A stretch of DNA of 64,000 nucleotides from Streptomyces sp. NBC_00353 (GCF_036108815.1 NZ_CP107985.1:6386058-6450057), one strand, 5' to 3'. Shown: positions 1-13,502, counted from the stretch's first letter. The notes: generated from the letters alone by a model not told the origin. Translations and numbers: made by a program.

Positions 1-437
1 AGCAGTTGCTCGTACGAGTTCCAGTAGAAGGAGCGGGCTGCCGCGATGTCGCGGGAGTACCAGGAAGTCGGGGTCCTGCTGATGATCGTCGGGCCGGGCT
101 CCTTGAAGACCGGGACGGCATGGTCGAGCGCCTTGCGCAGGTCGGCGCCGAAGCCGAGGCGGGTGTACGTGTCGGCGCGGCGGGCGTCGGTACGGGGCGG
201 GGCAGCGGACCAGTCGGCCTGTTCCGCCAGGTCCCAGCCGGTCAGCGTGCGGTGCCAAAGTGCGGTGAGCTCGTCGCCGGGGCCCGCGGCGATGATGCGG
301 TCCCGGAAGTGGCTCAGCTCCGTGTCGGCGGGTTCGTCGGCCTCGGTGAGTACGAAGGCCAGCTTGGTGAAGTGCTTGGGTCCGCGGCGCATCGCGGCCA
401 GGACGTCGCCGTGCAGGTTGAGCAGGTGGTCGGTCAT
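1..437 (-). CDS. hypothetical protein, N-terminal part only (gene runs off the left edge of the window)
   Basis: Own translation of the minus strand from cat at 435-437 gives MTDHLLNLHGDVLAAMRRGPKHFTKLAFVLTEADEP... with strong GC3 bias. GAGGAAG lies upstream. Not in the ORF track because it is partial. The plus-strand ORFs 6..593 and 46..1182 are low-complexity antisense artefacts. Confidence 0.45.
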   Translation of the reverse strand, partial: MTDHLLNLHGDVLAAMRRGPKHFTKLAFVLTEADEPADTELSHFRDRIIAAGPGDELTALWHRTLTGWDLAEQADWSAAPPRTDARRADTYTRLGFGADLRKALDHAVPVFKEPGPTIISRTPTSWYSRDIAAARSFYWNSYEQL

Positions 438-486
438 GGTGGGGACGGCTTCCTCGAGAAGGGAGGTGGGCGGACGACTCGGTGGT

Positions 487-2016
487 TCAGCGCGCGAGTT
501 CGCAGCGCGCGGCTGTCACCAGGACGCTGTTCCACAGCGCCACGTTGTCGGTGTGGACAGCCCGCACCCGTTCCTTCTGGAAGATCTCGTTGACCATGAG
601 ATAGAGCATGCTCTTGACGACCGGGGCGTCGTTCAGGCCGCCGCGGCGGCCCCCGTTGAAGGCCTGCCGGTACTCCTTGTTGAGCTTGACCTCCCGCTCG
701 TCACGGTCGAGTTCGAAGAACACCTCCGACGGCAGCGTGTCCCAGCGAAAGGTGATCGCATCCTCGCCCTCCAGCTCCGGAAGTTCGTCACGCAGCGCAC
801 GCCTCAGCTTCGGGTCCAGGCCCTTGCCGGCCGGGAGGACGGCCTTGCGCTGCGGCTCGGTGGCGCGCCGGGCCGCCTCCCGGTACGTCGTCTCCGCTTC
901 CTGGAGATACGTGGCGAACGTCTGGCCCCTGTCGTCCGTGGCCTGTTCGAGGCCGCGGGCGAAGGCGGGGGTGACCGTCACGCCGTCCTTCTTCACCGTG
1001 AGGCTGAAGACGTCGTTCGGTTCGGTCGGCAGGTCGACGGCTATCCGGGCCAGCGCGAGGTGTCCCTCGGCGCTGCGGGTGCTGTTCCAGCCGCCTGCCT
1101 GGACGAGGCGGTCGTTGCGGTAGATGTAGAAGCCCTGGCGTTCGGAGAACGGACCGATGCCGCGGAAGCTGACCAGTGGTGACTTCGGAGGCCAGATGTG
1201 CGCGGTCAGTGCCACCTTGCCGACGCCCTCGACGGGTGCGGTGTACGTACGGGGGAAGCCGGACCGGCCCGGTATCCGGTAGCCGAACGGGTCGATCGGC
1301 TCGACACCGCGGTGGTCGAGTTCCTCCTTGGTCCGGACGTCCTCGACGACGATGTCGATGTTGAAGTCCTCGCGGGCGAGGAAGCGGTGCAGGTACAGAC
1401 CGAGGTGGGTCTCCAGCTTCTCGATCGCGTCGTTCAGGAAGCGGTCGGCCTGACCCGTCGTCACGGTGTCGAAGGCGCGCACCCGGTCCCAGCGGACGAT
1501 CGTGCCGTGCCACTCGACGACCCCGTCGTAGCGGTCGACGAGGTCCTGGCAGTAGCGGGGGTCGACGACGTCGCAGGTGAAGTCGGCCTGCGCGCGCGCC
1601 GTCAGCCAGCGCCGGCCGGTGGACGGACTCTTCTTGGTGCGGCTGATGACGGTCAGCGAATCGGCGTGCGAGAGGGAGGCGGCCTTGAGGCCCGCCCCGA
1701 AGTGGCCGAGCGCGCTTGCCGCGTATCCCTCGCGGCCGCCGACCGTCATTGCGGTGTCCAGGGCCTCGTCGTTCATGCCGCACCCGTCGTCGACGACAAG
1801 GAGGCCGGCGAGGCGGTCGTCGTCCCGGAGGAAACTGACGACGACGTTACGGGCGCCCGCGTCGATGGAGTTGTCGACGAGGTCGGCGATGGCGGCTTCG
1901 AAGCCGTAGCCCTGGTGCGTCAGCGATTCGACGTACCGGGCGGCAGGCGGCAGCCGCTTGCTGCCGGTCGTCGGGATCTCGTACTGCCAGTCGGCAGAAG
2001 GCTGATAAGGCGGCAT
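487..2016 (-). CDS. GHKL-superfamily (HATPase_c/MORC-Hsp90-like) ATP-binding protein, 509 aa
   Basis: Bergerat-fold motifs: N-box AAIADLVDNSIDAGA and G1 box VVDDGCGM, then a long uncharacterised C-terminal region. Start moved to the internal ATG at 2014-2016, preceded by AGGAAG. It lies downstream of the SEC-C gene on the same strand. Confidence 0.7.
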   Translation of the reverse strand: MPPYQPSADWQYEIPTTGSKRLPPAARYVESLTHQGYGFEAAIADLVDNSIDAGARNVVVSFLRDDDRLAGLLVVDDGCGMNDEALDTAMTVGGREGYAASALGHFGAGLKAASLSHADSLTVISRTKKSPSTGRRWLTARAQADFTCDVVDPRYCQDLVDRYDGVVEWHGTIVRWDRVRAFDTVTTGQADRFLNDAIEKLETHLGLYLHRFLAREDFNIDIVVEDVRTKEELDHRGVEPIDPFGYRIPGRSGFPRTYTAPVEGVGKVALTAHIWPPKSPLVSFRGIGPFSERQGFYIYRNDRLVQAGGWNSTRSAEGHLALARIAVDLPTEPNDVFSLTVKKDGVTVTPAFARGLEQATDDRGQTFATYLQEAETTYREAARRATEPQRKAVLPAGKGLDPKLRRALRDELPELEGEDAITFRWDTLPSEVFFELDRDEREVKLNKEYRQAFNGGRRGGLNDAPVVKSMLYLMVNEIFQKERVRAVHTDNVALWNSVLVTAARCELAR

Positions 2017-2234
2017 GAAGGCTTCCTCGCGCACACAGAGCTGAGACCTGCGTGGGGAGGTGCGCCCTGAGATCAATGGTGGGATGTGATGGTATTGCAA
2101 AAGTGGGACATCGAGGGAATCTTCCTGCAGAAAGAATGCCTCGTTCCGCTCACCTACGTCCAAGGGCCCCGCTGGAGCGGGGCCCTTGGGGTTTTCCGGC
2201 AACGGCACAGCAGCAGCGCGCCCCGTTCAGGTGC

Positions 2235-3233
2235 TCATGCCACCCCGTGGCAGTCCCGGTACGCCCGCCCCGACCCGCACCAGCAGGCCGCGGTCCGTGC
2301 AGGAGGCCACGGCACCGCGCGGCCGCGGGCTGCGAGCGTCGTTGCGTACTGGGGGAGGAGGTTCGGGTCGGACGGGGACGCGGCTTCGGAGGCGGCGAAG
2401 GCCTCGTACGAGGGGACCGTGCCGGTGACGATGCCCAGGTTCGGGGTGCCCGCGGAGTGGAGGTCGCGGAGGGCGGCTTCCAGGTCGGTGAGGTGTTCGG
2501 TGTGGGAGGGGTACTCCGCGCGCAGGGTGGGGTATGCGGCGAGAAGTTCGCTCAGTTCGGGCTCCGGCCAGTGCAGGACCGCCACCGGGAACGGGCGGGA
2601 GAGTGCGGTGCGGTAGGTGCCCAGTTCGGCGCGGAGGCGGGTGATCTCGGCCTGGAGCTCGCCCGGGTCGGACGAGCCGAGTGACCACAGCCGCTTCGGG
2701 TCGTGGAGTTCGTCCAGCGGGACCGTGGCGGTGTGGAGCGTGTCGGTCAGGTCGTCCCAGGTGTCGTGGTCGACGCCCATCAGGCGGCGTACCCGGTGGC
2801 GGCCGATCAGCAGCGACTGGGTGGCGTACGGGACTTCCTCGCCCGGTGCCAGGAGCAGGGTCAGCGCGGTCGAGAGGAAGTCGTGGGCCGACTCCAGCTC
2901 GTCGTGCGATTCCAGGGTCTCGGCTGCGATCTGCCAGGGGCCGGGTTCGAGGGGCCCCGCCGCGCGGATGCCCTCGATGATGGCGCGGGCCTCGGCCTCG
3001 TGGCCGTACTCCCAGAGGTTCGATGCCTTGAGGGCCTTGATCAGGTACGGCTCGGCGGCGTCCGCGGCGAGGAGCTCGTCGTAGAGGGGGGTGGCGCGGG
3101 TGCGCTCGCCGGCGAGTTCCAGGTGGGCGGCGGCCCGGAGGAGCAGCGGTTCCCGGTCGTCGGGGTACTGCGCCGCCGTGCGCAGCAGGCGCTCGGCTTC
3201 GGCAATGTGGTCAGCAGGCGTGTCGGGGCGCAT
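2235..3233 (-). CDS. helical/TPR-like protein with C-terminal SEC-C metal-binding motif, 332 aa
   Basis: C-terminus CWCGSGRAYRDCHG matches the SEC-C zinc motif. The rest is an alpha-helical repeat-like body. The upstream part of the 514-aa ORF is P/R-rich junk, so the start was set at the ATG at 3231-3233. Confidence 0.65.
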   Translation of the reverse strand: MRPDTPADHIAEAERLLRTAAQYPDDREPLLLRAAAHLELAGERTRATPLYDELLAADAAEPYLIKALKASNLWEYGHEAEARAIIEGIRAAGPLEPGPWQIAAETLESHDELESAHDFLSTALTLLLAPGEEVPYATQSLLIGRHRVRRLMGVDHDTWDDLTDTLHTATVPLDELHDPKRLWSLGSSDPGELQAEITRLRAELGTYRTALSRPFPVAVLHWPEPELSELLAAYPTLRAEYPSHTEHLTDLEAALRDLHSAGTPNLGIVTGTVPSYEAFAASEAASPSDPNLLPQYATTLAARGRAVPWPPARTAACWCGSGRAYRDCHGVA

Positions 3234-3320
3234 GCACCACACCGTACTGCTGTACGGCTCCTGTACGGAGGGTTGTTCCGACCCTGGAGAGTTACAGGTC
3301 CTGCCCTTATCGTGCGGGCC

Positions 3321-4124
3321 GTGAGGCAGCGGATACCGGTCAGGGTGCAGAGGAACCCGCGCGGGCGGCGCCTTGCCGCGCGCGGGCTGTGGTCGGGCGC
3401 CGAGGCGGTCGTGACCCTCGGTGTGGTGCTGCTGCTTCTCGTCGTCCATCAGCTGTGGTGGACCAATCGGCAGGCCAGGGCCGATGCCCGGCACAAGGTG
3501 CAGTCCCTGGAGCGGGAGTGGGGGCGGACGGGGGAGGGGGACGCCGGTGTTCCGTCCGCCCCGTCGGGCGAGGGCGCGGACGCGGACGCGGATACGGACA
3601 CGGATACGGCGGGGGAAGGCGGGGGAGCGCCGGCGGGTGGTGCGCGTACGGGAGCGGCTGCTGCGCCCCGCTGGGATCAGGCCTACGCCGTCATCCGTAT
3701 CCCGCGCCTGGGGCTCACCGCCCCCGTCGCCCAGGGCATCAGCAAGAGCGGCGTCCTCGACAAGGGGTACGTCGGGCACTATCCGCGCACCGCGCAGCCC
3801 GGTGGCGCCGGGAACTTCGCGCTAGCCGGGCACCGCAATACGCACGGTGAGCCGTTCCGCTACATCAATCGGCTGCGGCGCGGCGACCGGATCACCGTCG
3901 AGACCCGGCAGCGCGTGTACACGTACGTCGTCGACAAGACGCTGGCGCAGACCGCCGCCCGGGACAGCGGGGTCATCGCCGCCGTGCCGCGCAGCAATCT
4001 GAAGCCCGCCTTCGGGTACAGCGAGCCCGGTTCCTACGTGACGCTGACCACGTGCACGCCTGAATTCACCTCCCGTTACCGCCTTGTCGTGTGGGGGAAG
4101 CTGGCGGGTGTGCAGGAGCGGTAG
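3321..4124 (+). CDS. class E sortase (transpeptidase)
   Basis: Motifs AGHRNTHGEPF and active-site TLTTC (TLxTC). N-terminal membrane anchor present. GTG start at 3321. The upstream part of ORF 2703..4124 overlaps the SEC-C gene and was rejected. Confidence 0.75.
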   Translation: MRQRIPVRVQRNPRGRRLAARGLWSGAEAVVTLGVVLLLLVVHQLWWTNRQARADARHKVQSLEREWGRTGEGDAGVPSAPSGEGADADADTDTDTAGEGGGAPAGGARTGAAAAPRWDQAYAVIRIPRLGLTAPVAQGISKSGVLDKGYVGHYPRTAQPGGAGNFALAGHRNTHGEPFRYINRLRRGDRITVETRQRVYTYVVDKTLAQTAARDSGVIAAVPRSNLKPAFGYSEPGSYVTLTTCTPEFTSRYRLVVWGKLAGVQER

Positions 4125-4148
4125 CGGCGGTCACTAAGCTTTTCCGAC

Positions 4149-4337
4149 GTGCTCAGACGACGTCCGCAGTTGTTGTGGTTGCTGGTTCCCTACGTGCTGT
4201 ACCTGGGGGCGCTGCCGTTCGTGAACCGGGTCCGTCCCGTCGTGCTCGGACTGCCGTTCCTCTTCGTGTGGCTGCTCGGGGCGACCCTGCTGACACCCGT
4301 GGCGGTCTGGCTGACCCGGCGGGGGGACCGCCGGTGA
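4149..4337 (+). CDS. small membrane protein (DUF3311-like) coupled to the sodium:solute symporter
   Basis: 62 aa with two transmembrane segments and a GTG start. Its TGA overlaps the symporter GTG start (GTGA). This arrangement is typical for DUF3311/SSS pairs. Confidence 0.6.
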   Translation: MLRRRPQLLWLLVPYVLYLGALPFVNRVRPVVLGLPFLFVWLLGATLLTPVAVWLTRRGDRR

Positions 4338-13323: not shown

Positions 13324-13502
13324 CGCCGTCGGAGCGGTAGGGGTGTGGGCCGGTCGAGGGGTCGGGGGCGGCCGACCGGGTGGTCCTTCGGCATGTCGAC
13401 GCCCGGCGGGTCGCGCGCGCGTGACAGCGTCGCCGCCTACAGCCGGTGAACTCCGGGCACGGGGCGATCCGGCCGTTCGCAAGCAGCGAAGGGTGTCCCC
13501 CC

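What the first reader, a model, noticed from the sequence alone, without database searches (positions are those of the whole stretch)
487..3233. Co-directional pair: TPR-like SEC-C-motif protein followed by a GHKL (MORC/Hsp90-like) ATPase
A 332-aa helical protein ending in a canonical SEC-C zinc motif (CWCGSGRAYRDCHG) sits directly upstream of a 509-aa protein. The latter's N-terminus has clear Bergerat-fold ATPase motifs (DLVDNSIDAGA, DDGCGM) followed by about 330 aa of uncharacterised sequence. Prokaryotic MORC-like GHKL ATPases are often components of restriction- or defence-like systems. The partner and C-terminal region here are not something I can assign. The pair is separated by 219 nt, so it may or may not be one transcript.
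Basis: partly seen in the sequence, partly recalled or inferred. Interest (0 to 1): 0.55.

Follow-up and report, generated by a model that had tools for sequence, protein, structure and literature searches.

The report
MORC-like ATPase paired with Z1 motor
The MORC/MutL-like ATPase is real, but it works with the DNA-translocating "Z1" motor gene just downstream (cut off by the window edge) in a known kind of restriction/phage-defence cassette, while the SEC-C protein upstream is an unrelated conserved Streptomyces gene bordering a defence-gene hotspot.

Summary
Both ORFs exist as described, on the minus strand: SEC-C protein at 3233..2235 and GHKL ATPase at 2016..487. The proposed pairing is not supported. 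A 13-bp GC hairpin follows the SEC-C stop. The SEC-C gene tracks the chromosomal flank, not the ATPase: it is adjacent in only 26 of 71 species loci and absent from 22. It also occurs in the same context next to unrelated cargo, such as a Type IV restriction enzyme. The ATPase's invariant partner is the next gene (ATG at 437, running off the window), a 979-aa DEAD-Z1 helicase-like protein found directly downstream in 85/85 loci. Vsr and two C5-cytosine methyltransferases follow. The two proteins are distant homologues of MzaB and MzaC of the validated MZA anti-phage system. They fit the paraMORC + Z1-helicase + Dcm + Vsr operons predicted by Iyer et al. (2008). The "uncharacterised 330 aa" is an S5 transducer domain plus a family-conserved C-terminal extension. 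No dedicated nuclease is present in this variant. The methyltransferase block also occurs elsewhere without GHKL–Z1, so its assignment is uncertain. Verdict: an ordinary, computationally known kind of defence module, and a new member of that kind. Moderate-to-low interest.

The parts
487..2016 (-). GHKL (MORC/MutL-like, 'paraMORC'/MzaB-like) ATPase gene, 509 aa. Bergerat ATP-binding domain at about aa 16-215 (nt 1372-1971), S5-type transducer domain at about aa 216-365 (nt 922-1371), family-specific C-terminal extension at aa 366-509 (nt 490-921).
   Evidence: Pfam HATPase_c_3 E 1.6e-20. PADLOC MzaB E 2.7e-35 over aa 22-368. NCBIfam MzaB 129 bits against an equivalog cutoff of 850. AF2 model pLDDT 70.8. 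Foldseek matches: SMCHD1 ATPase module, MutL-N40, MORC2/3/4. ATP-binding motif residues E40, N49, D76, G78, G80, G104, G107, G109 and T172 are invariant in 19 homologues. 363 representatives at 50% clustering match over the full length.
1..437 (-). [quoted passage not shown] It is truncated by the window edge.
   Evidence: ATG at 437, 49 nt after the GHKL stop, GC3 0.92. The full gene was recovered on L001 9931-12870. Pfam Z1 E 8e-54, PADLOC MzaC E 6.5e-61, NCBIfam MzaC 252 bits against a cutoff of 1500. It carries DTLMQMGRWFG, which fits the DThhQxuRhFG motif of Iyer et al. 2008. It lies directly downstream on the same strand in 85/85 loci.
438..486 (-). 49-nt GHKL-Z1 spacer containing GAGGAAG upstream of the Z1 ATG; I noticed no strong hairpin on reading it (the spacer was not folded).
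   Evidence: Sequence read directly. The gap between GHKL and Z1 is under 200 nt in 69 of 80 loci.
2017..2234 (-). 218-nt spacer between the SEC-C gene and the GHKL gene, with lower GC (0.62). It contains the SEC-C terminator-like hairpin, presumably the GHKL operon promoter, and a GAGGAAG ribosome-binding site 7 nt before the ATG at 2016.
   Evidence: The promoter is inferred: no sigma-70 consensus match was found.
2160..2189 (-). Perfect 13-bp GC-rich hairpin (CCAAGGGCCCCGC-TCCA-GCGGGGCCCTTGG) about 45 nt after the SEC-C stop. It looks like an intrinsic terminator without a U-tract.
   Evidence: RNA fold of the 101-nt context gives -52 kcal/mol against -40.9 for shuffles, z -2.96. Strong hairpins of different sequence follow the SEC-C stop in most loci whatever lies downstream.
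2235..3233 (-). SEC-C-motif / TPR-like protein gene, 332 aa. It is NOT part of the system. It is a conserved Streptomyces chromosomal gene, divergent from a sortase gene, that borders the variable island.
   Evidence: Pfam SEC-C E 6.7e-7. 1449 homologues, the nearest 99% identical. AF2 and Foldseek show a TPR-like N-terminal domain. Context analysis.

Best explanation
The GHKL ATPase is the first gene of a co-directional cassette: GHKL - DEAD-Z1 translocase - Vsr - Dcm - Dcm. Only the GHKL gene and the first 145 codons of Z1 lie in the window. The cassette is a Streptomyces member of the 'paraMORC + Z1-helicase' restriction-modification/defence cassettes, distantly related to MzaB and MzaC of the MZA anti-phage system.

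Shown here:
- GHKL and Z1 are an invariant gene pair.
- Both keep intact nucleotide-binding motifs.
- The pair moves between chromosomal sites and genera without the SEC-C gene.
- In different species it is combined with different accessory modules: Type II REase-like genes + Vsr + Dcm, an MzaD-like nuclease, or methyl-directed REase-like genes.

Inferred mechanism, from the CglI prototype and from MutL/MORC biology:
- The C5-methyltransferases mark host DNA, and Vsr repairs the T:G mismatches that 5mC deamination creates.
- The Z1 protein is an ATP-driven dsDNA translocase that engages unmodified DNA. Its variable C-terminal domain gives DNA or partner specificity.
- The GHKL+S5 protein is an ATP-operated dimerising clamp that loops DNA or licenses the motor-nuclease complex.
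- The cleavage subunit of this particular variant is not identified. Candidates are the Vsr-family nickase or a protein of the adjacent convergent module.

The SEC-C/TPR protein is an unrelated, separately terminated chromosomal gene at the edge of a defence-gene hotspot.
For: - Full context on L001: GHKL, Z1 (979 aa), Vsr, two DNA_methylase genes on the same strand, with gaps of 49 nt and 14 nt, a 4-nt Vsr/Dcm1 overlap (13334-13337) and 162 nt before the second methylase.
- MzaB and MzaC hits for the two adjacent genes.
- Z1 lies directly downstream in 85/85 loci across Streptomyces, Kitasatospora, Nocardia and Actinacidiphila, at 55-99% GHKL identity.
- The Z1 motor keeps Walker A GYVQSGKT, IIDDESD, HHTML.H and motif VI QMGR (QxxR) invariant. 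These match features reported for the biochemically characterised DEAD-Z1 translocase H.CglI (PMC5861437).
- The Iyer et al. 2008 operon type has the same motif and the same Dcm/Vsr association (PMC2292703).
- The GHKL fold is a GHKL+S5 ATPase module like MutL-N40, MORC and SMCHD1.
- Full-length relatives are fused to the EcoRII-N DNA-recognition domain or to sigma-70 factors; MzaA is described as a sigma factor.
- MZA is experimentally validated, and MzaD is its nuclease (bioRxiv 10.1101/2022.06.16.496414). An mza-like variant, SDIC2, protects >=1000-fold.
- Variant cassettes carry REase_II-like, MzaD-like or mREase-like genes.
- The SEC-C gene is decoupled from GHKL.
- The Z1 C-terminal domain is a swap unit that covaries with Vsr and Dcm: rho 0.73 and 0.64, against 0.21-0.33 for the motor and GHKL.
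Against: - No dedicated restriction nuclease was found in this variant. There is no REase, MzaD or AIPR hit in 10 kb downstream. The Z1 C-terminal domain has no conserved acidic catalytic motif in 85 sequences.
- Scores to MzaB and MzaC are far below the equivalog cutoffs.
- A Vsr-Dcm-Dcm block 80-88% identical to ours occurs with the convergent trio and three helicases but WITHOUT GHKL-Z1 (L095-L099). The methyltransferases may therefore belong to that neighbouring system, and the Z1-C/Vsr covariation could be mere physical linkage.
- No expression, methylation or phage data exist for this locus.
- The AF2 model has only moderate confidence (pLDDT 70.8; residues 383-419 are below 50).
Confidence: 0.7

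Rival explanations
1. One reading: the SEC-C/TPR protein and the GHKL ATPase form a two-gene functional unit, for example a TPR adaptor or chaperone for the ATPase.
For: The genes are co-directional and 218 nt apart. In 49 of 71 species loci a SEC-C homologue lies within 10 kb upstream of the GHKL gene. In close relatives both are 98-99% identical to ours.
Against: A 13-bp GC hairpin follows the SEC-C stop. SEC-C is adjacent in only 26 of 71 loci, has 0.5-8.7 kb of other genes inserted in 23, and is absent in 22, including all Nocardia, Kitasatospora and Actinacidiphila loci. SEC-C presence follows the chromosomal flank (46/49). SEC-C sits in the same context next to a Type IV restriction enzyme (L086-89) or next to Vsr-Dcm-trio (L098-99), with no GHKL gene. 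Its PADLOC hits come only from the 18-aa zinc motif, at E 0.002-0.07.
Confidence: 0.04
2. GHKL-Z1 is a self-sufficient two-gene module that senses or remodels DNA. It is functionally independent of the adjacent Vsr-Dcm-Dcm block, which belongs to the neighbouring convergent system (HTH-GHKL / 325-aa protein / DUF6339 plus three helicases).
For: The Vsr-Dcm-Dcm + trio + helicase block recurs without GHKL-Z1 in S. atroolivaceus, S. griseus, NBC_00080, Rhodococcus and Catellatospora. Five loci show GHKL-Z1 with none of the accessory genes I searched for within the flank. Canonical MZA has no methyltransferase.
Against: In our locus Vsr starts 14 nt after the Z1 stop and overlaps Dcm1, which suggests one transcript. 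About 75 of 85 GHKL-Z1 loci have a C5-methyltransferase within 10 kb, including variants without the trio. The association of Z1 with Dcm and Vsr is reported across bacteria (PMC2292703; PMC9523054). The Z1 C-terminal domain covaries with Vsr and Dcm.
Confidence: 0.15
3. The cassette is a repair accessory rather than a restriction system. The MutL-like GHKL and the helicase-like Z1 protein would play the roles that MutL and UvrD play for Vsr in E. coli very-short-patch repair. The cassette would supply them in cis because Actinobacteria lack MutS/MutL (the latter from general knowledge, not tested here).
For: In this variant the only nuclease in the operon is a bona fide Vsr (TIGR00632, 120 bits against a cutoff of 97.85). 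Vsr is present in 67 of 84 loci. Iyer et al. point out the MutL-Vsr and MutL-UvrD parallels.
Against: The same GHKL-Z1 core is combined with REase-like, MzaD-like or methyl-directed REase-like genes in other species. It sits in a defence hotspot beside Type IV enzymes. Homologous MZA and SDIC2 systems give phage defence. Z1 prototypes are restriction motors. The same operon type occurs in MutL-containing phyla.
Confidence: 0.1

Closest known systems
MZA (mzaABCDE) anti-phage system (Gao et al. 2020; PADLOC / NCBIfam MzaB, MzaC)
   Same: It has adjacent GHKL (MzaB-like) and Z1 (MzaC-like) genes in the same order. Both hits are significant (E 1e-35 to 1e-75). Some Streptomyces variants also carry an MzaD-like gene between them (L067-type loci). 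Relatives of the GHKL protein are fused to sigma-70, which echoes MzaA.
   Different: Scores are far below the equivalog cutoffs (129/850 and 252/1500 bits). No MzaA (sigma), MzaD (nuclease) or MzaE (AIPR) is present in this locus. Instead there is Vsr plus two C5-methyltransferases, which canonical MZA lacks.
paraMORC/MORC + 'third type' SFII helicase (Z1) + DCM + Vsr operons predicted as R-M systems (Iyer, Abhiman & Aravind 2008, PMC2292703)
   Same: It has the GHKL+S5 architecture with intact ATP motifs and a C-terminal extension. The partner helicase carries the DThhQxuRhFG motif. It is associated with cytosine methylases and Vsr, and it sits in a mobile hotspot.
   Different: The associated novel RE-fold nuclease and AIPR described there are absent from this variant. 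The paraMORC subfamily (1-5) was not assigned.
CglI / NgoAVII ATP-dependent restriction enzymes (H.CglI DEAD-Z1 motor; Toliusis et al. 2018, PMC5861437)
   Same: The Z1 protein keeps the DEAD-Z1 hallmarks: Walker A/B, an HH-type motif at the start of Z1, and motif VI with QxxR spacing. It has a C-terminal domain after Z1 and is linked to a C5-methyltransferase.
   Different: Our Z1 protein is 979 aa against 632 aa, with a ~170-aa N-terminal extension and a different C-terminal domain. There is no sequence match to any PDB chain, including 6F1S. No R-subunit (PLD nuclease + B3-like domain) is present. A GHKL subunit is present, which CglI lacks.
Z1 + PD-(D/E)XK + Dcm putative defence system, 'Type I' (Miller et al. 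2022, PMC9523054)
   Same: It has a large Z1 protein and a cytosine methyltransferase, and is associated with DNA-repair endonucleases.
   Different: Their core PD-(D/E)XK protein is not present in this locus. Their gene lists were not compared at sequence level.
MutL N-terminal domain / eukaryotic MORC and SMCHD1 ATPase modules
   Same: The two-domain GHKL + S5 transducer fold is the same (Foldseek E 1e-11 to 1e-13; TM normalised to the target up to 0.56). The nearest PDB sequences are MORC2/4 and then MutL.
   Different: Identity is 12-16%. There is no MutL C-terminal dimerisation/endonuclease domain, no CW or coiled-coil domains, and a different C-terminal extension. It is not a housekeeping MutL or HtpG.

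Membership tests
GHKL (Bergerat-fold) ATPase superfamily, MutL/MORC-like branch | Motifs I (ExxxNxxD), II (DxGxG), III (GxxGxG) and IV (T) of the ATP-binding fold | tested here: met
   E40...N49..D52, D76-G78-G80, G104-G107-G109 and T172 are invariant in 19 homologues. HATPase_c_3 E 1.6e-20.
GHKL (Bergerat-fold) ATPase superfamily, MutL/MORC-like branch | S5-fold transducer domain immediately after the GHKL domain | tested here: met
   The AF2 model has a beta-rich domain at aa ~216-365. Foldseek aligns 365-440 columns to MutL-N40, MORC2/3/4 and SMCHD1 ATPase modules. The model has moderate confidence.
   NCBIfam MutL models score 13-28 bits against cutoffs of 180-937, over aa ~40-130 only. 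Hsp90 structures superpose at rmsd ~18-19 A.
MZA anti-phage system (mzaABCDE) | MzaB: GHKL ATPase scoring as an equivalog | tested here: not met
   NF041932 scores 129 bits against a cutoff of 850. The homology is significant but distant (E 1.5e-37) and covers aa 29-352.
MZA anti-phage system (mzaABCDE) | MzaC: Z1 protein adjacent to MzaB | tested here: inconclusive
   Adjacency is met in 85/85 loci. NF041933 scores 252 bits against a cutoff of 1500, so it is a homologue and not an equivalog.
MZA anti-phage system (mzaABCDE) | MzaD nuclease, MzaE (AIPR) and MzaA (sigma-like) genes in the locus | tested here: not met
   No PADLOC or Pfam hit to these in any of the 7 genes within 10 kb downstream or in the window genes. 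An MzaD-like gene exists only in a divergent variant (L067, E 7e-11).
paraMORC-type R-M operons (Iyer et al. 2008) | Operon with an SFII helicase carrying the C-terminal DThhQxuRhFG motif | tested here: met
   DTLMQMGRWFG in the Z1 protein; the MQMGRWFGFR core is invariant and the leading D-T-L positions are >=80% conserved in 85 sequences.
paraMORC-type R-M operons (Iyer et al. 2008) | Association with a cytosine methylase and a Vsr endonuclease | tested here: met
   Vsr (TIGR00632, above cutoff) and two PF00145 genes lie directly downstream. About 75 of 85 loci have a Dcm gene and 67 of 84 have Vsr.
paraMORC-type R-M operons (Iyer et al. 2008) | Associated RE-fold nuclease / assignment to a named subfamily (paraMORC1-5) | tested here: inconclusive
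   No RE-fold gene is present in this variant. Subfamily signatures (for example the paraMORC2 ExxxH) were not clearly identifiable by eye, and no reference sequences were available.
DEAD-Z1 helicase-like motors (H.CglI prototype) | Walker A/B in the N-core; Z1 as C-core with motif VI QxxR; H/H motif | tested here: met
   GYVQSGKT, IIDDESD, HHTML.H and QMGR are invariant in 85 sequences. Pfam Z1 E 8e-54. Features are as described in PMC5861437. ATPase and translocation activity cannot be tested here.
DEAD-Z1 helicase-like motors (H.CglI prototype) | Partner R-subunit with nuclease + site recognition (R2H2 complex) | tested here: not met
   No PLD/B3-like or other REase gene is in this locus. 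REase_II-like genes follow Z1 in ~27 other loci.
SEC-C motif / TPR protein (upstream gene) | C-terminal CxC...C(H/C) zinc knuckle; helical repeat domain | tested here: met
   PF02810 E 6.7e-7 at aa 313-330. C317, C319, C328 and H329 are invariant. TPR-like helices at 6-127, with Foldseek hits only to TPR proteins.

The most novel reading that the evidence does not exclude
The GHKL ATPase plus the Z1 motor (to about residue 740) is a constant 'engine'. It would be re-targeted by swapping the Z1 C-terminal domain together with the downstream Vsr/methyltransferase cassette, analogous to exchange of target-recognition domains in Type I/ISP enzymes. In variants like this one that lack any dedicated restriction nuclease, the Vsr-family nickase would serve as the cutting subunit. 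The MutL-like GHKL would stimulate it and the Z1 motor would unwind or translocate from the nick, giving a restriction machine built on the logic of very-short-patch repair.
Probability: 0.15. Interest if true: 0.6.

Novelty: new member of a known kind. Interest (0 to 1): 0.33.

Why it matters
The result corrects a plausible but wrong gene pairing and places the ATPase in a recognised, widespread class of defence cassette. That class is mechanistically unsolved: nobody has shown what the GHKL subunit does next to a Z1 motor. The comparative data yield three concrete, testable points: an invariant GHKL-Z1 core, a domain-boundary recombination point in Z1 that travels with the methyltransferases, and a defence hotspot beside a conserved SEC-C/sortase gene pair in Streptomyces. 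These could help in dissecting MZA-like systems and in predicting barriers to DNA transfer into Streptomyces strains. None of this would greatly surprise a specialist.

Tried and rejected
- **Third ORF, first attempt:** I translated it in the wrong frame and redid it from ATG 437. Its first 145 aa alone give no Pfam or PADLOC hit, so the gene had to be recovered from another assembly.
- **Promoter/terminator scan:** it found nothing useful. There was no sigma-70 match, and the hairpin lacks a U-tract so it was missed.
- **Rfam on 1-4200:** only a sub-threshold sX12 hit (26.8 bits against 106) over the hairpin. I treated it as chance.
- **Nuclease in the Z1 C-terminal domain or the GHKL C-terminal extension:** I looked for conserved catalytic motifs. 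No conserved acidic or His motif was found in Z1-C. A ββα-like element at GHKL 422-454 has no conserved His. This idea is rejected as unsupported.
- **The convergent trio as the missing nuclease module:** it is mutually exclusive with REase genes (31 against 27 loci). However, the trio recurs without GHKL-Z1 in several genera, so it is an independent module. The idea is not supported, though not excluded.
- **Literature:** the first searches for 'Mza' were swamped by journal identifiers. Xu et al. 2012 (PMC3256598) is not held.
- **paraMORC subfamily:** it could not be assigned.
Full report
**1. Observation**

The window is high-GC DNA (about 0.70), and every close match is to Streptomyces.
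- The SEC-C protein is at 3233..2235 (332 aa) and ends in CWCGSGRAYRDCHG.
- The GHKL protein is at 2016..487 (509 aa) and contains DLVDNSIDAGA and DDGCGM.
- Pfam confirms SEC-C (E 6.7e-7, above the gathering score) and HATPase_c_3 (E 1.6e-20).
- Third-position GC is 0.90-0.91 in these frames. It is 0.67-0.77 in the in-frame upstream extensions and 0.49-0.82 in overlapping alternative ORFs, so the frames and start codons are right.

A third co-directional ORF starts at ATG 437, 49 nt after the GHKL stop, and runs off the window's left edge.

**2. Context beyond the window**

An exact-protein look-up found a contig (L001) that carries the identical GHKL gene with 10 kb on each side. In L001 orientation the gene order is:
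- sortase(-) | SEC-C(+) | GHKL(+) | Z1-domain protein, 979 aa (+) | Vsr, 150 aa (+) | C5-methyltransferase, 318 aa (+) | C5-methyltransferase, 381 aa (+)
- then three convergent genes: DUF6339, a 325-aa unknown protein, and a 695-aa HTH protein.

Gaps from Z1 onward are 14 nt (Z1-Vsr), a 4-nt overlap (Vsr-Dcm1) and 162 nt (Dcm1-Dcm2).

Family scans gave these results:
- The GHKL protein matches PADLOC and NCBIfam MzaB (E 2.7e-35; 129 bits against an equivalog cutoff of 850).
- The Z1 protein matches MzaC (E 6.5e-61; 252 bits against 1500) and Pfam Z1 (E 8e-54).
- Vsr passes its TIGR00632 cutoff.

The Z1 protein contains DTLMQMGRWFG. This is the DThhQxuRhFG signature that Iyer, Abhiman & Aravind (2008) gave for the distinct SFII helicase found with MORC/paraMORC GHKL ATPases, cytosine methylases, Vsr and AIPR in predicted R-M operons (PMC2292703).

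**3. Who is the partner? Co-occurrence**

I aligned 19 homologues (A1) and retrieved 80 loci, one per species, from Streptomyces, Kitasatospora, Nocardia and Actinacidiphila. GHKL identity in these loci ranges from 55% to 95%.

A Z1 gene lies directly downstream on the same strand in 80/80 loci, and in 85/85 after adding five more. The gap is under 200 nt in 69 of the 80.

The SEC-C gene behaves differently. Among the 71 loci with at least 9 kb of upstream sequence:
- It is adjacent (under 400 nt) in 26.
- It is present but separated by 0.5-8.7 kb of inserted genes in 23.
- It is absent in 22, including every non-Streptomyces locus.
- Where it is present, the chromosomal flank genes (FAA hydrolase, YidC, DUF6412, sortase and others) are also present in 46 of 49 cases.

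Starting from the SEC-C side gives the same picture.
- Four complete genomes encode an identical SEC-C protein that is 99% identical to ours. All have the GHKL-Z1 cassette, but with different Z1 lengths and methyltransferase sets.
- The S. californicus group has SEC-C (81% identical) in the same flank, followed by a PLD-helicase-DUF3427 gene. That gene is a full-length PADLOC Type IV methyl-directed restriction enzyme (1540 bits), and there is no GHKL or Z1.
- Streptomyces sp. NBC_00080 has SEC-C followed by Vsr-Dcm-trio-helicases, again without GHKL-Z1.

A perfect 13-bp GC hairpin sits about 45 nt after the SEC-C stop, at window 2160-2189. The 101-nt context folds at -52 kcal/mol, z -2.96. 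Strong hairpins of different sequence occupy the same position in most loci, whatever lies downstream.

I conclude that SEC-C is a separately terminated, conserved chromosomal gene at the edge of a variable defence hotspot. The GHKL-Z1 pair is the mobile functional unit.

**4. What the GHKL protein is**

The AF2 model has a mean pLDDT of 70.8 and pTM of 0.64. It shows three parts:
- a Bergerat ATP-binding domain (aa ~16-215);
- a beta-rich second domain (aa ~216-365);
- a C-terminal extension (aa 366-509) made of helices and a small three-stranded sheet, partly of low confidence.

Foldseek against the PDB finds two-domain GHKL+S5 ATPase modules. The top hits are SMCHD1 (E 1e-13), MutL-N40 (E 1e-11; TM normalised to the target 0.56) and MORC2/3/4. 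Hsp90 entries match only at rmsd ~18-19 A.

By sequence, the nearest solved proteins are MORC2/4 and then MutL, and only over aa 30-134. NCBIfam MutL models score 13-28 bits against cutoffs of 180-937. The protein is therefore not a housekeeping MutL or HtpG.

All ATP-binding motif residues are invariant in the homologues.

An exhaustive search of 1.84 billion representatives gives 363 relatives at E<=1e-30. These align over aa ~13-506 at 30-42% identity and are about 500 aa long. The C-terminal extension is therefore a feature of the whole family.

Several relatives are domain fusions:
- a complete sigma-70 factor at the C-terminus (five of the six ~1100-1200-aa representatives scanned);
- the EcoRII-N DNA-recognition domain at the N-terminus;
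- TerD;
- an AAA_15/21 ATPase.

These fusions place the family in DNA-targeting and defence contexts. They also echo MzaA, which Miller et al. describe as 'a sigma factor' (PMC9523054).

**5. What the Z1 protein is**

H.CglI is the biochemically characterised prototype. Its DEAD and Z1 domains form an SF2 helicase-like dsDNA translocase that drives the CglI restriction enzyme. Its reported features are an unusual Walker A, an H/H motif, a motif VI with QxxR spacing, and a DNA-binding C-terminal domain (PMC5861437).

In 85 aligned Z1 proteins the motor region (aa ~180-730) is almost invariant. It includes GYVQSGKT, IIDDESD, HHTML.H and QMGRWFGFR.

The last ~220 residues keep only structural residues (W, P, G, F, one R and one H) and no acidic catalytic motif. 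This region looks like a variable binding or recognition domain, not a nuclease.

**6. Modularity**

I compared our locus with four close relatives. Amino-acid identities were:
- flank genes, SEC-C and GHKL: 96-100%;
- Z1: 74-93%;
- Vsr: 51-87%;
- the methyltransferases: 25-92%.

The break falls at the Z1 domain boundary.
- In L083, Z1 is ~100% identical up to about residue 740 and then 63-80%.
- In L085, residues 761-979 are 31-42% identical, and the Vsr/methyltransferase set is different.

Across 84 loci, identity in the Z1 C-terminal domain correlates with Vsr (Spearman 0.73, p 3e-12) and with Dcm1 (0.64, p 3e-9). The Z1 motor (0.33 and 0.28 with Vsr and Dcm1) and the GHKL N-terminal domain (0.21 with Dcm1) correlate far less.

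This fits a constant engine plus a swappable specificity cassette. The segments are physically adjacent, so linkage alone could also produce the pattern. I treat the functional reading as inference.

**7. Cassette variants and the missing nuclease**

The 85 loci fall into these classes:
- (A, ours) GHKL-Z1-Vsr-Dcm-Dcm plus the convergent trio: about 21 loci.
- (A') GHKL-MzaD-like-Z1-Dcm plus the trio: about 10 loci.
- (B) GHKL-Z1-one or two Type II REase-like genes-Vsr-Dcm: about 27 loci.
- (C) GHKL-Z1-Vsr-Dcm: about 17 loci.
- GHKL-Z1 with none of the accessory genes I searched for: 5 loci.
- One Nocardia locus with two methyl-directed-REase-like genes and no methyltransferase.

Our variant therefore has no dedicated restriction nuclease. 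The only nuclease in the operon is Vsr.

I considered the trio as the missing module, because the trio and the REase genes never co-occur (31 against 27 loci). However, the trio recurs without GHKL-Z1 in Rhodococcus, Catellatospora, S. bugieae, S. atroolivaceus, S. griseus and NBC_00080. There it sits with three large helicase genes and a Vsr-Dcm-Dcm block. In three Streptomyces strains that block is 80-88% identical to ours.

Our island is thus a composite. The methyltransferase block may be shared with the neighbouring system, or may belong to it. This is the main uncertainty in the mechanism, and I list it as a rival explanation.

**8. Comparison with what is known**

mzaABCDE (Gao et al. 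2020) is a validated five-gene system.
- A preprint reports 10^3-10^4-fold protection against the T4 variants carrying unmodified or hydroxymethylated cytosine, with weaker protection against glucosylated wild-type T4. It saw no growth arrest and found nuclease activity in purified MzaD (10.1101/2022.06.16.496414).
- An mza-like variant from Serratia (SDIC2) also protects.
- Miller et al. (2022) predicted a related Z1 + PD-(D/E)XK + Dcm system associated with repair endonucleases.

Our locus shares the GHKL-Z1 core with all of these as distant homologues. It lacks MzaA, MzaD and MzaE and carries Vsr plus two Dcm genes instead. It fits best the operon class Iyer et al. predicted in 2008.

It is therefore a new member of a computationally known kind that has not been solved experimentally. 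It is not an MZA equivalog.

**9. Mechanism I commit to (confidence about 0.7 overall)**

Shown here:
- the gene pair is invariant;
- the nucleotide-binding motifs are intact;
- the pair is independent of SEC-C;
- the setting is a defence hotspot;
- the accessory genes are modular.

Inferred:
- The methyltransferases mark self DNA.
- Vsr repairs 5mC-deamination mismatches.
- The Z1 protein translocates on unmodified DNA using ATP.
- The GHKL+S5 protein acts as an ATP-driven dimerising clamp that loops DNA or licenses the complex, as proposed for MutL/MORC-type modules.
- Cleavage is by an as yet unidentified subunit, with Vsr as the leading candidate in this variant.

**10. Verdict**

The defence-related GHKL reading is right. 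The SEC-C partnership is wrong. The finding belongs to a known class and deserves modest interest (0.33).

The points worth keeping are the Z1 domain-boundary swap, the hotspot next to SEC-C, and the uncharacterised trio-helicase-Dcm block next door.

Noticed in passing
L001 15685-19654 (beyond the window's left edge); also L090, L092-L099: A convergent three-gene module is conserved across Streptomyces, Kitasatospora, Rhodococcus and Catellatospora: a 695-aa HTH protein, a 325-aa unknown protein, and DUF6339. It matches PADLOC PDC-M33A/C weakly. It usually sits beside three large helicase genes (a 1599-aa DEAD/ResIII protein with a TmtA/sacsin-like N-terminus, a UvrD-like protein, and a 1083-aa Helicase_C protein) and a Vsr-Dcm-Dcm block, with or without GHKL-Z1. 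This looks like an uncharacterised system of about ten genes.
   Followed up: partly
L001 17567-19654 (-), aa ~110-237 of the 695-aa protein: After its XRE-type HTH, the protein carries invariant Bergerat-type motifs (REvTQNsLDER, DDyNAsGLtG, AGGSYGLGKATLW). It is therefore a second GHKL-like ATPase in the island. One homologue (P0329, 1183 aa) has a sigma-70 factor in place of the HTH.
   Followed up: partly
Downstream of the SEC-C gene: window ~1-2234 and the equivalent site in L002, L005, L018, L086-L089, L098: The site next to the conserved sortase/SEC-C gene pair is a variable defence hotspot in Streptomyces. Depending on the species it holds GHKL-Z1 cassettes of several architectures, a Type IV methyl-directed restriction enzyme (1045 aa), a caspase-like 915-aa gene with two companions inserted between SEC-C and GHKL, or the trio-helicase block.
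   Followed up: partly
P0442, P0447, P0457, P0480, P0504, P0383, P0372, P0471 (relatives of the window GHKL protein): Full-length relatives at 33-40% identity are fused to complete sigma-70 factors (regions 1.2-4), to the EcoRII-N DNA-binding domain, to TerD, or to an AAA_15/21 ATPase. The sigma-70 fusion resembles a fused MzaB-MzaA.
   Followed up: partly
L068 9986-17586 (Nocardia inohanensis): Here the GHKL-Z1 pair is followed by a 194-aa gene and two genes that match 'Type II methyl-directed restriction enzyme' models, and I detected no methyltransferase within 10 kb. This may be a modification-dependent (Type IV-like) version of the same engine.
   Followed up: no
window 2160-2189 and the equivalent position in most SEC-C-containing loci: The hairpin after the SEC-C stop keeps its structure while its sequence changes between species (stems of 10-18 bp). 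This is consistent with a conserved U-tract-less terminator. A sub-threshold Rfam sX12 hit (26.8 bits against 106) overlaps it on the plus strand and is probably chance.
   Followed up: partly
window 2235-3233 (-), aa 217-309 of the SEC-C protein: The SEC-C protein has a confidently predicted alpha/beta domain (pLDDT 80-91) between the TPR-like region and the zinc knuckle. It did not appear among the PDB fold matches, so its function is unknown.
   Followed up: no
L099 14309-17942: In one strain the methyltransferase of the trio-associated block is broken into fragments next to a Transposase_20 gene, which suggests ongoing decay or turnover of these cassettes.
   Followed up: no
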